Below, one piece after another: positions 21,154 to 60,383 of a stretch of DNA of 64,000 nucleotides; within the stretch, counting starts at the first letter, position 1; each line of letters begins with the position of its first letter. The DNA is from Planctomycetota bacterium (GTDB lineage Bacteria; Planctomycetota; SZUA-567; H5-PLA8): contig DATGGK010000038.1 of NCBI GenBank assembly GCA_035308565.1, positions 19,023 through 83,022 on the forward strand. The letters are read 5' to 3'. Below the pieces are notes generated by a model that saw only the letters and a list, made by a program, of their open reading frames with translations, was not told the DNA's origin and did no database searches. The position numbers and the translations under genes were made by a program.

Positions 21154-21996
21154 ATGCTCGCTCCCCTCCCCCGCCGCCCGCTCGGGCGCACCGGCGTTTC
21201 CGTCACTCTCTTCGGCCTTGGCGGCGAAGGCATCTTGCGCACGTATGGCGAAGAAAAATCCGCCGCGCGCGTGATTCACCGCGCGCTCGATCAAGGCGTC
21301 AATTACTGCGATACCGCTCCGGCGTACGCGGGCAGCATGGATTACTACGGCGCGGCGCTCGGCGAACGCCGCCGCGAAATCTTTCTTGCGTCGAAAACGC
21401 ACGAACGCACGCGCGACGGTTCGCTGAAATTGCTCGACAAAAGCTTGAAGCGCCTGCGCACCGATCATCTCGATCTGTGGCAGCTTCACGATCTTCGCAC
21501 GCACGAAGACCTGCACGAAATCTTCGCCAGAGGCGGCGCGCTCGACGCGTTGGTACACGCCCGAGCCGAAGGCCGCGTGCGCTTTCTGGGCATCACCGGC
21601 CACCACGATCCGCAAATTCTCCTCGACGCGATGAAGCGCTTTCCGTTCGATACGGTCCTCGTCGCGCTCAACGCCGCCGACGTGCACCGCTCTTCCTTCA
21701 TCAAAACAGTTCTGCCCGACGCTTTCCGCCGCGACATGGGCATCATCGGCATGAAGACCTGCGCGCAGGGCGCGCTGCTTGAAAACGGAGCGCTGAGCAT
21801 GGATGAAGCCGTCGGCTACACGCTCTCATTGTGGGGCGTCAGCCACGTGATCATCGGCTGCAAAACCGAAGCGGAGGTGGACGACAACGCGCGCATCGCG
21901 CGCGAATTCAAACCGTTCGATGAAACAAAAATGCGCGAACTCGAAGCCCGCACGCGCGCGAACCATCCGCGGTTTAGTTATTATAAGAAGTCCTGA
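21154..21996 (+). CDS. Aldo/keto reductase
   Basis: LGRTGVSVTLFGLGG...GVNYCDTAPAYAGS...LDLWQLHD is the AKR pattern. First ATG is 21154; the track start at 21070 is TTG. Confidence 0.85.
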   Translation: MLAPLPRRPLGRTGVSVTLFGLGGEGILRTYGEEKSAARVIHRALDQGVNYCDTAPAYAGSMDYYGAALGERRREIFLASKTHERTRDGSLKLLDKSLKRLRTDHLDLWQLHDLRTHEDLHEIFARGGALDALVHARAEGRVRFLGITGHHDPQILLDAMKRFPFDTVLVALNAADVHRSSFIKTVLPDAFRRDMGIIGMKTCAQGALLENGALSMDEAVGYTLSLWGVSHVIIGCKTEAEVDDNARIAREFKPFDETKMRELEARTRANHPRFSYYKKS

Positions 21997-22060
21997 GTGC
22001 TGAGTGCTGAGTAACAGCGGGGCGCTTCGCGCGCCTCTACTCAGCACTCAGGACTCAGGA
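21991..22060. repeat. Heptamer-stem hairpin (word gtgctga/ctgagt) at the 3' end of the AKR gene
   Basis: Left arm tcctgagtgctgagtgctgagta (21991-22013). Right arm tactcagcactcaggactcagga (22038-22060). 22 of 23 positions are complementary. The loop holds an inner GC hairpin ggcgc-ttcgc-gcgcc. The arm overlaps the TGA at 21994. Confidence 0.8.
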
Positions 22061-22073
22061 CTAGGATATTCCC

Positions 22074-59443: not shown

Positions 59444-59450
59444 CTCAATC

Positions 59451-60278
59451 ATGAAAACTGCCATCCCCTTCGTCAAAATGTCCGGCACCGGCAACGATTT
59501 CATCATGATCGATAACCGCGCCGGCCTGCTCAAAGAGGGCGACGCACCGCTGCTCGCAAAGGCCGCCTGCCCGCGCCGCGTGAGTGTCGGCGCCGACGGC
59601 GTGATCCTGATCGAGAAACCCAGCAAGCCCGGCCACGATCTGCGCATGCGCATCTTCAACGCCGACGGTTCCGAAGCCGAAATGTGCGGCAACGGCTCGC
59701 GCTGCTTTGCGATTTTTGCGGCGCAAATCGGCGCAGCGGGACGCGAACAGAAAATCGACGTAATTCCCGGAACGCTGAACGCCGTCGTCGCGCCCGATGG
59801 CCTATCGGCGCGCGTCCAGCTGTCGCAGCCGTCGCGCATCGAGAAAAAAACGGCCGTCAAAGTTTTCGACGACAGCGTGGATTTGTATTTCGTGAACACC
59901 GGCGTGCCCCACGCGATTCAATTTGTCGTTGACGTCTCAAAAATCGACATCCGAAAAACCGGCGCGTGCATCCGCTACCACGACGTCTTCAAGCCCAAAG
60001 GCGCCAACGCTAATTTCGCGCAACTTCTCGGCAACAACACAATCCGCATCCGCACCTACGAACGCGGCGTCGAAGACGAAACGCTGGCCTGCGGCACCGG
60101 CGCCACCGCCGCGGCCATCGCATCAGCCTTCGCGCACGGCTTCAGATCGCCGGTGAAAGTCCTAGTCGCCGGCGGCGCGCTGACGATTCATTTCGAATTG
60201 AACGGCGATCAAGCGAGCCGGCCGTATTTGGAAGGCGGGGTGGATACGGTTTACAAGGGTGAGTATTTCTGGCGATAA
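59451..60278 (+). CDS. dapF: Diaminopimelate epimerase
   Basis: FVKMSGTGNDFIMID, the first catalytic Cys in MCGNGSRCF, and the second in ETLACGTGATAAA. Confidence 0.93.
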   Translation: MKTAIPFVKMSGTGNDFIMIDNRAGLLKEGDAPLLAKAACPRRVSVGADGVILIEKPSKPGHDLRMRIFNADGSEAEMCGNGSRCFAIFAAQIGAAGREQKIDVIPGTLNAVVAPDGLSARVQLSQPSRIEKKTAVKVFDDSVDLYFVNTGVPHAIQFVVDVSKIDIRKTGACIRYHDVFKPKGANANFAQLLGNNTIRIRTYERGVEDETLACGTGATAAAIASAFAHGFRSPVKVLVAGGALTIHFELNGDQASRPYLEGGVDTVYKGEYFWR

Positions 60279-60383
60279 ATTCAAAATTCAAAATGCAAAA
60301 TTGAACAGCGTGGACTCGAAGATTTTGGCGCGAAGCGCCGCCGCCGTTAATTTTGAATTTTGCATTTTTAATTTTGAATTTAC
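60277..60383. repeat. Heptamer-stem hairpin, aattcaa family, between convergent dapF and fabG-like genes
   Basis: aaattcaaaattcaaaatgcaaaattgaac faces gttaattttgaattttgcatttttaattttgaatttac. The loop holds ggcgc-gaa-gcgcc. The arms overlap both stop codons (60276-78 and 60380-82). Confidence 0.85.

What the first reader, a model, noticed from the sequence alone, without database searches (positions are those of the whole stretch)
21991..60383. Family of intergenic hairpins whose stems are built from tandem heptamer 'words'
At least ten intergenic gaps carry a 60-130 nt element with one plan: a run of a short (mostly 7-nt) tandem unit, a GC-rich loop that often holds its own mini-hairpin, then the reverse-complement run. 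The word differs from site to site.
- aattcaa: 47698-47794 and 60277-60383, with a half-copy at about 48798.
- atttgtc: 39802-39930 and 53300-53402.
- gtgctga: 21991-22060, with a half-copy at 48139.
- ggtccaa: 52710-52792.
- gggagga: 51471-51533.
- gatgaat: 44925-44979.
- ttgac[tg]a: 49851-49963.
- caggagt / ctacycc: 56201-56326.
They abut or overlap stop codons and fill nearly every gap in the yicC...aminotransferase housekeeping string. Ordinary terminators or REP elements do not normally have periodic low-complexity stems with a locus-specific word. This suggests either a peculiar expansion mechanism (slippage acting symmetrically on both arms) or an undescribed class of structured RNA/DNA element.
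Basis: seen in the sequence. Interest (0 to 1): 0.72.

Follow-up and report, generated by a model that had tools for sequence, protein, structure and literature searches.

The report
Hairpin repeats built from heptamer arrays
A Planctomycetota genome has filled many gaps after its genes with long hairpins whose two arms are tandem runs of a 7-base word and its complement; this is real and striking, but paired heptamer arrays were already noted (without a known function) in Xanthomonas and Geobacter.

Summary
Ten gaps in the window carry a run of a 7-nt word, a centre, then the complementary run. Only period 7 is over-represented: 11 strict arrays against 0.05 expected. Random placement gives 0.6 inverted same-word pairs, never more than 5; 10 are observed. 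Three independent assemblies are identical, apart from one coding mismatch.

All ten elements touch or lie within 10 nt of a stop codon. None lies in a divergent (promoter-only) gap. Four end 2-11 nt before the next start codon, and no T-tracts follow, so they are not classical terminators.

The closest relatives (about 80% amino-acid identity, same gene order) lack them. A more distant relative has its own set with other words.

Arms mirror each other's variant units, and copies at unrelated sites share variant units. This favours copying and spread over symmetric slippage, with later changes by whole units. A test for an RNA-level signature was negative overall (30 G·U vs 32 A·C).

My best reading is REP/REPIN-like dispersed "array palindromes" in 3' and intercistronic spacers; the enzyme and function are unknown.

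Paired 7-9-nt arrays were already reported in Xanthomonas and Geobacter metallireducens, so this is a new member of a known, poorly understood kind.

The parts
21989..22062 (+). H1: GTGCTGA/GTCCTGA-word palindrome between an aldo-keto reductase gene and a GH127 gene. The TGA stop (21994-21996) lies inside the 5' arm. The next ATG is 11 nt after the 3' arm.
   Evidence: RNA -57.7 kcal/mol, z -10; DNA z -10.2
39796..39936 (-). H2: ATTTGTC-word palindrome. It fills the 144-nt gap exactly, 1 nt after the TAG stop and 2 nt before the next ATG. It holds a nested inner hairpin made of the same word.
   Evidence: 46-nt arms, 85% complementary; z -6.0
44921..44988 (-). H3: GATGAAT/GAACGAT-word hairpin. 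The coaB stop TGA (44978-44980) lies inside the 5' arm, so the last codons of coaB are encoded by the array.
   Evidence: (z -3.5)
47698..47796 (-). H4: AATTCAA/TTGAATT hairpin between rpoZ and coaC. The 3' arm is a perfect (TTGAATT)x6 array ending 4 nt before the coaC ATG. The 5' arm is degenerate and pairs through 11 G·U pairs in the sense RNA only.
   Evidence: (z -7.1)
49851..49963 (-). H5: degenerate TTGAC[TG]A-word compound hairpin between secG and yicC, with several possible registers.
   Evidence: z -4.8; I21
51471..51534 (-). H6: GGGAGGA / CCTCTTC purine-pyrimidine hairpin between pheA and tpiA. It overlaps the pheA TAG stop.
   Evidence: (z -3.3)
52707..52796 (-). H7: GGTCCAA-word palindrome between greA and pheA. 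The greA TAG stop is inside the stem, and the pheA ATG is 7 nt after it. It occupies the place where relatives keep a conserved T-tract terminator.
   Evidence: (z -8.7)
53301..53398 (-). H8: ATTTGTC-word palindrome between the aminotransferase gene and greA. Variant units are mirrored in both arms, and a one-unit (7-nt) bulge is present.
   Evidence: (z -9.1)
56198..56330 (-). H9: AGGAGTC array plus CCTACYC array between convergent genes. It is a hairpin only as minus-strand RNA (11 G·U pairs). Its core AAAACCGCGACGCGGTTTT looks like a bidirectional terminator.
60271..60387 (.). H10: AATTCAA-word palindrome spanning stop to stop between convergent genes (TAA at 60276-60278 and at 60380-60382). 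The variant unit TTGCATT is mirrored in both arms.
   Evidence: (z -5.3)
48138..48154 (-). Unpaired half array (GTGCTGA x2.4), 3'-arm type, next to a REPIN-like GC hairpin and upstream of rpoZ.
48797..48811 (-). Unpaired half array (TTGAATT x2 on the sense strand) directly abutting the gmk ATG.
10532..10563 (-). Unpaired AATTCAA array in frame inside the 4300-aa ORF. It encodes NSKFKIQDSK.
28769..28803 (-). Unpaired AATTCAA array in frame in a variable linker of a DUF1587-family protein. It encodes IQDSKFKIQDSK.

Best explanation
These are lineage-specific, dispersed palindromic repeats. Each arm is a short tandem array of a 7-nt word, and the other arm is its complement ('array palindromes').

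Shown:
- Only period 7 is amplified.
- Arrays come in inverted pairs far beyond chance.
- They sit in spacers that contain a gene 3' end. They start at or over the stop codon and often end a few nt before the next start. They avoid divergent gaps.
- They are missing from the closest relatives. Different lineages carry different words in the same conserved spacer.
- A few word families recur at several sites and across genomes.
- Arms mirror each other's variant units, and separate copies share variant units.

Inferred:
1. New copies arise when an existing array or palindrome is copied into permissive, transcribed 3' or intercistronic spacers. This is REP/REPIN- or MITE-like behaviour with an unknown enzyme. 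An alternative is ectopic templated copying followed by fold-back inverted duplication.
2. Arms then gain and lose whole units by replication slippage.
3. On the mRNA they fold into stems of roughly 20-45 bp and act like REP/BIME elements. They would act as 3'-exonuclease barriers or dsRNA processing sites.
4. Where the element is sandwiched between a stop and a start, the stem base would occlude the next start region, and a terminating ribosome could open it.
5. They are not classical terminators.
For: Period and pairing:
- Only period 7 is amplified.
- 10 pairs are observed against 0.61 expected.

Placement:
- 10 of 22 gaps that contain a gene 3' end carry an element, against 0 of 5 divergent gaps.
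- With L008 added the figures are 18 of 37 against 0 of 7, Fisher p = 0.017. Placed by gap length, p = 0.004.
- The stop codon is inside or within 10 nt of all ten elements. The next start is 2-11 nt away for H1, H2, H4 and H7.
- There is no T-tract terminator excess: 40 found against 34 +/- 6 expected.

Turnover:
- Synteny is conserved, but orthologous spacers in L001, L002 and L003 lack nearly all of these elements: L001 has two heptamer-like hairpins of its own, L002 a period-8 pair.
- The rpoZ-coaC spacer is 24-27 nt with no hairpin in L001 and L003. It is 103 nt with H4 in the window and 109 nt with a GCTCTTG hairpin in L008. In L007 it carries a TTCATCA array.

Copying:
- Variant units are mirrored in the arms of H1, H3, H8 and H10.
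- Three L008 GAATGAT copies share the variants GAATGCG, GAATGCT and GAGTGAT and an inner junction.
- The two coding arrays share an identical 30-mer.
- L042 and L060 share an identical 30-nt arm around unrelated loops.
- Arm order is constant within families (p = 0.008).

Out-of-sample test: a new AATTCAA hairpin fills a convergent gap stop to stop at L130:16649-16713.

Slippage: a perfect 6-unit array in H4 and a 7-nt bulge in H8.

REPs show the same placement, inverted dimers and in-frame intragenic copies (PMC3733652).
Against: - No transposase, RAYT or reverse transcriptase lies in the window.
- No target-site duplications were seen.
- Loops of same-word copies are not homologous, which is unlike typical MITEs or REPINs.
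- There is no excess of sense-strand G·U over A·C in 17 co-directional stems (30 vs 32, p = 0.9). So nothing shows selection on the RNA fold except in H4 and H9.
- Only about 68 kb of this genome and about 21 kb of each relative were seen.
- All three assemblies are identical apart from one coding mismatch, so no live unit-number polymorphism was observed.
- Some sharing of single-substitution variant units could be recurrent mutation.
- Function was not measured at all.
Confidence: 0.5

Rival explanations
1. Purely local origin. A heptamer is duplicated by replication slippage next to a pre-existing small hairpin. The array is then copied to the other side by intra-strand template switching (quasi-palindrome correction). 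There is no movement between sites.
For: - Centres often hold a small GC-rich hairpin (H1, H8, H9, H10).
- Loops are local and unrelated between same-word copies.
- Palindromes extend into non-periodic outer flanks in H2 and H10.
- Arms mirror variant units.
- Slippage is visibly active.
- Most elements fold strongly as single-stranded DNA.
Against: - It does not explain why the same words, with the same variant units, recur at unrelated sites and in different genomes.
- It does not explain the identical 30-mers in two genes.
- The rpoZ-coaC spacer of relatives is 24-27 nt with no nucleating hairpin.
- Centres show no homology to the hairpins in orthologous spacers.
Confidence: 0.2
2. The arrays are selected binding sites for a protein that reads nucleic acid in 7-nt steps. 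One candidate is a nucleoid protein (IHF/HU), as proposed for Geobacter. Another is a cold-shock-domain protein on RNA. The pairing would give a cruciform or a switchable hairpin.
For: - Period 7 is strictly preferred.
- The same word (TTGAATT = TTTTGAA) sits next to start codons here, in L027 and in Nostoc 7120 (bioRxiv 10.1101/2022.06.06.494920).
- The orientation rule is AATTCAA after stops and TTGAATT before starts.
- PMC2700814 proposes IHF/HU sites.
- PMC4679880 cites CspB binding one protein per heptamer.
Against: - At least eight unrelated words occur in one 64-kb window, which is hard to reconcile with one sequence-specific binder.
- The elements are absent from close relatives that have the same genes and gene order, so they are dispensable.
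- Arms diverge mostly by transversions with no sign of constraint.
Confidence: 0.12
3. They are simply this organism's transcription terminators, possibly hairpin-only or factor-assisted.
For: - They sit only in gaps with a gene 3' end and start at the stop codon.
- H7 occupies the spacer where three relatives keep a conserved GC-stem and T-tract terminator.
- The H9 core is a classic bidirectional terminator.
- The convergent gaps (H9, H10, L130) are filled stop to stop.
Against: - No T-tract follows the stems, and terminator-like sites are not enriched.
- H1, H2, H4 and H7 end 2-11 nt before the next start codon. That leaves no room for a promoter, so efficient termination would silence coaC, pheA and other essential genes.
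- In relatives the same spacers (rpoZ-coaC, gmk-rpoZ) are 24-43 nt with no hairpin, so those genes are co-transcribed.
Confidence: 0.08
4. Assembly or sequencing artefact of low-complexity repeats in a metagenome-assembled genome.
For: The source is a MAG, and short-read assemblers can mis-join repeats.
Against: - Identical sequence in ENA, Logan and JGI assemblies, apart from one mismatch in 13,824 nt that lies outside the arrays.
- Reading frames and stop codons are intact at all borders.
- The same architecture appears in unrelated contigs.
Confidence: 0.01

Closest known systems
Paired tandem-repeat sites of Geobacter metallireducens (classes 1-3; Aklujkar et al. 2009, PMC2700814)
   Same: - Several classes per genome of 3-5 tandem 7-9-nt units (GTTGCTYN, TCTCCGTS[Y], MTYCTGA).
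- They are found mostly as pairs on opposite strands at variable distance.
- A further heptamer family (GGACCGG x4) occurs both between and inside genes.
- They are present in one species and absent from its sister species.
- Relatives of the window also carry period-8 pairs (L002, L009, L008).
   Different: - The phylum and the words differ.
- The Geobacter elements were only catalogued and guessed to be IHF/HU sites.
- No link to stop codons, arm mirroring or shared variants was reported.
GGGAATC heptamer repeats of Xanthomonas (Rehm et al. 2015, PMC4692102)
   Same: - Heptamer arrays of about 4 units.
- About 40% occur as convergent inverted pairs able to form stem-loops.
- They lie between aligned ORFs and are rare between divergent ORFs.
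- They sit within 50 nt of, or overlapping, the stop codon.
- They are transcribed.
- Repeat lengths differ between species.
   Different: - Xanthomonas has one G-rich word, interpreted as forming a G-quadruplex.
- Here there are at least eight words, mostly not G-rich (only H6 and H9 have G-runs).
- A higher fraction is paired here: 75% of strict arrays.
REP / REPIN / BIME elements (GTAG-tagged palindromes; PMC3733652, PMC3116915)
   Same: - Located downstream of genes, between co-directional and convergent ORFs.
- Occur as inverted dimers forming long hairpins.
- Occasional in-frame intragenic copies.
- Several families per genome, with lineage-specific presence.
- Transcribed as RNA hairpins.
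- The window also holds ordinary REPIN-like elements (48157-48224, 10154-10242).
   Different: - A REP unit is itself a 20-40-nt imperfect palindrome with a GTAG or CGTC tag, and it is tied to RAYT transposases.
- Here each arm is a non-palindromic heptamer array.
- There is no consistent tag, and no RAYT was seen.
Cyanobacterial STRR and other heptamer arrays (Calothrix/Nostoc; Beggiatoa TAACTGA, PMC4679880; Nostoc TTTTGAA, bioRxiv 10.1101/2022.06.06.494920)
   Same: - Dispersed tandem heptamers with several words per genome.
- Intergenic, often abutting start codons.
- TTTTGAA is a cyclic permutation of the window's TTGAATT.
   Different: They are mostly direct, unpaired arrays: only one inverted repeat among 170 Beggiatoa sets, and 'only a few' pairs in Nostoc.

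Membership tests
Paired short tandem-repeat sites (Geobacter metallireducens type) | 3-5 tandem units of 7-9 nt | tested here: met
   Arrays have 3-7 units of 7 nt. Period-8 pairs occur in relatives.
Paired short tandem-repeat sites (Geobacter metallireducens type) | Two arrays on opposite strands at variable distance | tested here: met
   There are 10 pairs, with spacers mostly of about 14 to 68 nt.
Paired short tandem-repeat sites (Geobacter metallireducens type) | Several word classes per genome, multi-copy, present in one lineage and absent from close relatives | tested here: met
   There are at least 8 words, 3 of them multi-copy in 64 kb. L001, L003 and L007 have 0-3 arrays against 16-23 in the window and L008.
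Paired short tandem-repeat sites (Geobacter metallireducens type) | Binding by IHF/HU (proposed, never shown) | not testable with these tools
   This needs protein-DNA assays.
Xanthomonas-type G-rich heptamer repeats | Heptamer arrays near or over stop codons between aligned ORFs, rare in divergent gaps, often in convergent pairs | tested here: met
Xanthomonas-type G-rich heptamer repeats | GGGNNNN unit able to form a G-quadruplex | tested here: not met
   Only H6 (GGGAGGA) and H9 (GGGGTAGGG on the minus strand) have G-runs. The other words are AATTCAA, ATTTGTC, GATGAAT, TTGACTA, GGTCCAA and GTGCTGA.
REP/REPIN | Unit is a 20-40-nt imperfect palindrome with a GTAG or CGTC tag | tested here: not met
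   The arms are direct heptamer arrays and are not self-complementary. G-TAG precedes only some elements (H2, H5, H6, H8), where TAG is the stop codon.
REP/REPIN | Inverted dimers downstream of genes, with some in-frame intragenic copies | tested here: met
REP/REPIN | Cognate RAYT (IS200/IS605-like Y1 transposase) in the genome | not tested
   None was found among the proteins of the window that were scanned. The rest of the genome was not available.
Intrinsic (Rho-independent) terminator | Short GC-rich stem followed by a U-tract | tested here: not met
   There is no enrichment (40 against 34 +/- 6). Only the core of H9 qualifies.
Intrinsic (Rho-independent) terminator | Lies at the end of a transcription unit | tested here: not met
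   H1, H2, H4 and H7 end 2-11 nt before the next start codon. Relatives have 24-43-nt spacers there.
MITE | Terminal inverted repeats plus a target-site duplication, with a conserved interior among copies | tested here: not met
   No TSD was seen in 19 elements. Loops are not homologous between same-word copies.
Any Rfam RNA family | Match at the gathering score | tested here: not met
   0 matches in the whole window.

The most novel reading that the evidence does not exclude
The arrays are a new type of non-autonomous mobile DNA. In this reading a heptamer array, not a palindrome or a TIR, is the unit that an unknown enzyme copies to single-stranded or hairpin DNA at gene ends. The resulting stop-to-start hairpins then work as ribosome-opened translational couplers. 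A ribosome terminating on the 5' arm melts the base of the stem. That frees the nucleotides just before the next start codon. The geometry fits H1, H2, H4, H7 and most L008 elements.
Probability: 0.18. Interest if true: 0.75.

Novelty: new member of a known kind. Interest (0 to 1): 0.45.

Why it matters
Heptamer arrays are a long-noticed, unexplained excess in many bacterial genomes (Xanthomonas, Geobacter, cyanobacteria, Beggiatoa). This locus adds four things.

1. It is an unusually dense, multi-word example in Planctomycetota, inside a perfectly syntenic housekeeping block. Filled and empty spacers can therefore be compared gene by gene.
2. It gives sequence evidence that arms and copies are related by copying, not by independent slippage.
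3. It shows that the elements enter very short operon-internal spacers and even reading frames.
4. It shows by simple geometry that they cannot be ordinary terminators.

If the copying mechanism were found, it would explain a widespread class of bacterial repeats. In practice, these elements alter C-termini and stop codons and can mislead gene and terminator prediction.

Tried and rejected
- Rfam at gathering score: no match.
- Canonical terminator and promoter scan: no terminator excess. A few promoter-like hits appear in arms, but on the strand antisense to the genes.
- Sense-strand G·U excess as a sign of RNA-level selection: strong in H4 and H9, but absent over 17 co-directional elements (30 vs 32). 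I therefore dropped the claim that the RNA fold is generally under selection.
- Ungapped register-shift test: the in-register alignment is best everywhere but clearly so only for H10. Unit tables were more informative.
- Target-site duplications: none seen.
- Homology of element centres to hairpins in orthologous spacers: none.
- Whole-element homology of same-word copies: the arms and inner junction align, the loops do not.
- Strain polymorphism: three assemblies (ENA, Logan, JGI) are identical apart from one coding mismatch, so unit-number variation could not be seen.
- Closer relatives: none above about 84% amino-acid identity in 5.8 billion proteins.
- Stop codons in all three frames as the purpose of the words: true for GAATGAT, false for AATTCAA, ATTTGTC, GGTCCAA and GGGAGGA.
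- G-quadruplex reading (from the Xanthomonas work): applies to at most 2 of 10 elements.
- Look-ups for rpoZ and the right-end ORF found nothing on record.
- My first protein alignment for the coding array used the wrong frame. The comparison rests on the in-frame translation read against the consensus of the homologues.
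Full report
OBSERVATION

I label them as follows:
- H1: 21989-22062
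- H2: 39796-39936
- H3: 44921-44988
- H4: 47698-47796
- H5: 49851-49963
- H6: 51471-51534
- H7: 52707-52796
- H8: 53301-53398
- H9: 56198-56330
- H10: 60271-60387

As RNA, eight fold far better than shuffles (z -3.3 to -10). H5 is degenerate and nested (z -4.8). H9 is not a hairpin on the + strand (z -1.9) or as DNA (z -1.5 to -1.9). It folds only as minus-strand RNA, through 11 G·U pairs (-53.5 kcal/mol, z -3.2).

A strict detector finds 11 period-7 arrays against 0.05 in second-order Markov shuffles, while periods 4-6 are at or below the shuffle mean. If the 24 arrays are placed at random in the 27 gaps of at least 40 nt, 0.61 inverted same-word pairs are expected, with a maximum of 5 in 200,000 trials. 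Ten are observed.

The sequence is identical in an ENA assembly, a Logan assembly and a JGI assembly, apart from one mismatch in 13,824 nt that lies in coding sequence. It is therefore not an assembly artefact. Rfam has no match.

CONTEXT

The organism is an uncultured Planctomycetota bacterium. The dense cluster lies in a minus-strand string of genes: aminotransferase, greA, pheA, tpiA, secG, yicC, gmk, rpoZ, coaC, [three-gene insert], coaB, a DUF4175 protein and a VWA/GATase protein.

Every palindrome touches a stop codon. The stop is inside the stem in H1, H3, H6, H7 and H10, and 0-10 nt before it in H2, H4, H5, H8 and H9. H1, H2, H4 and H7 end only 11, 2, 4 and 7 nt before the next start codon.

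Of the gaps of at least 40 nt, 10 of the 22 that contain a gene 3' end carry a pair. None of the 5 divergent gaps does, although these are the longest gaps. With the relative L008 added, the counts are 18 of 37 against 0 of 7 (Fisher p = 0.017). If elements were placed in proportion to gap length, p = 0.004.

T-tract terminators are not enriched (40 found against 34 +/- 6 expected), and only the core of H9 looks like one.

Two further AATTCAA arrays are unpaired and lie in frame inside genes:
- 10532-10563 sits in a 4300-aa protein. Its Peptidase_C25 domain is read in the same frame downstream of the array.
- 28769-28803 sits in a variable linker of a DUF1587-family protein.

Both encode ...SKFKIQDSK... 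and they share an identical 30-mer.

COMPARATIVE EVIDENCE

Gene order is conserved in six related MAG loci at 70-84% amino-acid identity. The spacers are not conserved.

The closest relatives (L001, L002, L003, L007) have 0-3 period-7 arrays in 8-21 kb. The window has 23 in 64 kb by the same TRF criteria. L008, which is more distant (about 71% identity, 60% G+C), has 16 in 21 kb.

L008 has the same architecture in 8 gaps but with other words: AGGGTTC, GAATGAT, GTGTGAC, GCTCTTG and GAGTCTG.

The same spacer has been hit independently in different lineages. The rpoZ-coaC spacer is 24-27 nt with no hairpin in L001 and L003. It is 103 nt with H4 in the window and 109 nt with a GCTCTTG hairpin in L008. 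In L007 it carries a TTCATCA array.

After greA, three relatives keep a conserved GC-stem and T-tract terminator in a spacer of about 200 nt. The window has a 92-nt spacer that is almost entirely H7.

L002 and L009 have period-8 pairs. L008 and L009 share the octamer ACGCAAAG.

Fresh sequence 3.5 kb beyond the window's left end holds one more AATTCAA-family hairpin. It fills a 65-nt convergent gap from stop to stop (L130:16649-16713).

ORIGIN: HOW THE TWO ARMS AND THE COPIES ARE RELATED

Unit-by-unit tables show that the two arms of a hairpin carry the same variant units in mirrored order:
- H8 has GTC, GGC, GTG and A[G/C]TTGTC in both arms, with one extra unit in one arm. That extra unit is the 7-nt bulge in the fold.
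- H10 has TTGCATT third from the outside in both arms.
- H1 has the GTCCTGA unit outside and the GTGCTGA unit inside in both arms.
- H3 has GAACGAT in both arms.

Copies at unrelated sites also share variants. Three L008 GAATGAT elements share GAATGCG, GAATGCT and GAGTGAT, plus the inner junction GAATGATGAATA--GCT. Two unrelated metagenome contigs, L042 and L060, share an identical 30-nt arm around unrelated centres.

Which arm comes first is constant within each family (p = 0.008). It is not universal for the word, though: among metagenome contigs 5 pairs have one order and 2 have the other.

Words recur across genomes:
- GATGAAT-type words occur in the window, L007, L008 and L027.
- TTGAATT occurs in the window, L008 and L027, and as TTTTGAA in Nostoc 7120 (bioRxiv 10.1101/2022.06.06.494920).

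These facts favour copying of existing arrays or palindromes over independent, symmetric slippage. Slippage clearly acts afterwards, as shown by the perfect six-unit arm of H4 and by whole-unit indels.

Against a conventional mobile element:
- No transposase or RAYT lies in the window.
- No target-site duplications were seen.
- Loops are not homologous between copies.

FUNCTION

I tested for selection on the RNA fold. H4 and H9 each hold 11 G·U pairs that would be A·C mismatches on the other strand. Over 17 co-directional stems, however, sense-strand G·U equals A·C (30 vs 32, p = 0.9), and most mismatches are transversions. Most elements fold equally well as DNA. There is therefore no general RNA signature.

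Geometry excludes efficient termination for the elements sandwiched between a stop and a start. It implies that they are transcribed within polycistronic mRNAs.

The most economical reading is REP/BIME-like. The elements would be tolerated, and perhaps exploited, as long stem-loops at 3' or intercistronic positions. Such stems would block 3' exonucleases or be cut by dsRNA nucleases.

In the stop-hairpin-start cases the base of the stem pairs the nucleotides just after the stop with those just before the next start. A terminating ribosome would therefore expose the next start. This last point is inference from geometry only.

An orientation rule holds in the window, L008 and L027. AATTCAA on the sense strand follows stops, and TTGAATT precedes starts.

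COMPARISON WITH WHAT IS KNOWN

Heptamer repeats are known to be over-represented in intergenic DNA of several bacteria (stated in PMC4692102, which cites Mrazek 2007).
- In Xanthomonas, about 185 GGGAATC arrays include 70-75 convergent pairs. They lie between aligned ORFs, within 50 nt of or over the stop codon, are rare in divergent gaps, and are transcribed (PMC4692102).
- In Geobacter metallireducens, several classes of 3-5 tandem 7-9-nt units occur mostly in pairs on opposite strands at variable distance. Another heptamer family occurs both between and inside genes. All are absent from G. sulfurreducens and were guessed to be IHF/HU sites (PMC2700814).
- Beggiatoa TAACTGA arrays and Nostoc TTTTGAA arrays are mostly direct and sit next to start codons (PMC4679880; bioRxiv 10.1101/2022.06.06.494920).
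- REPs share the placement, the inverted dimers and the in-frame intragenic copies, but not the anatomy (PMC3733652).
- In a broad metagenome sample of contigs bearing (AATTCAA)3, 13% of all period-7 arrays are in inverted pairs and only 2 are same-orientation neighbours. In the window the paired fraction is 75%.

The kind of element is therefore known, though barely studied. This is a dense, multi-word member in a new phylum.

VERDICT

My best explanation (confidence about 0.5) is dispersed REP-like array palindromes that spread by copying, are resized by slippage, and act, if at all, as mRNA stem-loops rather than terminators.

Novelty: new member of a known kind. Interest: 0.45. The kind was already catalogued in two other genera, which limits surprise for a specialist. 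What this locus adds is a syntenic block that makes the open question of what makes and moves heptamer arrays unusually tractable.

Noticed in passing
window 10532-10563 and 28769-28803: Unpaired (AATTCAA)n arrays lie in frame inside two unrelated large genes, both encoding SKFKIQDSK. They share an identical 30-mer (10 codons). One sits in a variable linker that homologues fill with other residues.
   Followed up: yes
window 48157-48224 (gmk-rpoZ gap) and 10154-10242 (inside the 4300-aa ORF): Two ordinary GTAG...CTAC REPIN-like palindromes: GTAGTCCCGCCTTTAGGCGG / CCGCCTAAAGGCGGGACTAC, and GTAGAACGGAGCTCCCACTCCGTTC / its complement. In the first, the TAG of GTAG is the gmk stop codon. The second is intragenic. 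L001 has its own family (GTACCGCCGGCGTCTCGCCGGC) in two spacers.
   Followed up: partly
window 48867-48887; L003:1479-1542; L008:7762-7800; L027 about 2300; L060: A recurrent CCCCTCTCCC...GGGAGAGGGG hairpin appears in spacers of several related and unrelated contigs. It looks like another dispersed repeat family.
   Followed up: no
window 45702-47089: coaC (flavoprotein) and coaB (DFP) are separate genes in this clade. In the window they are pushed 1.2 kb apart by a three-gene insert that includes a SocA/Panacea-domain antitoxin-like gene. Relatives have 95-400 nt there.
   Followed up: partly
window 7840-20739 (minus strand): A single 4300-aa ORF with PATR repeats and a C-terminal Peptidase_C25 (gingipain-like) domain.
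   Followed up: partly
L008:7838-7910: An unpaired (GACAACT)x10 array lies between two copies of a GCAATCCAGGAGGATTGCGCTAC hairpin. So arrays can sit between copies of another repeat.
   Followed up: no
L002:7914-8025; L009:2190-2466, 2813-3357; L008:11165-11341: Period-8 arrays (GCACTAAG, ACACCAAG, ACGCAAAG), some in inverted pairs. The octamer ACGCAAAG is shared by L008 and L009. So the phenomenon is not strictly heptameric in relatives.
   Followed up: partly
window 41835-42030 and 50016-50142: In-frame 15-, 30- and 45-nt tandem repeats lie inside the DUF4175 protein and in the C-terminal extension of SecG. They are low-complexity coding repeats, unrelated to the heptamer elements.
   Followed up: no
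window 39938-39950 and 49971-49985: The 3' ends of two unrelated genes (DUF4175 protein and secG) read almost the same just before H2 and H5: GGAAGTAGCAACTGAC and AGAAGTAGCAACGAAC. This may mean the element brings its own stop codon and flank.
   Followed up: no
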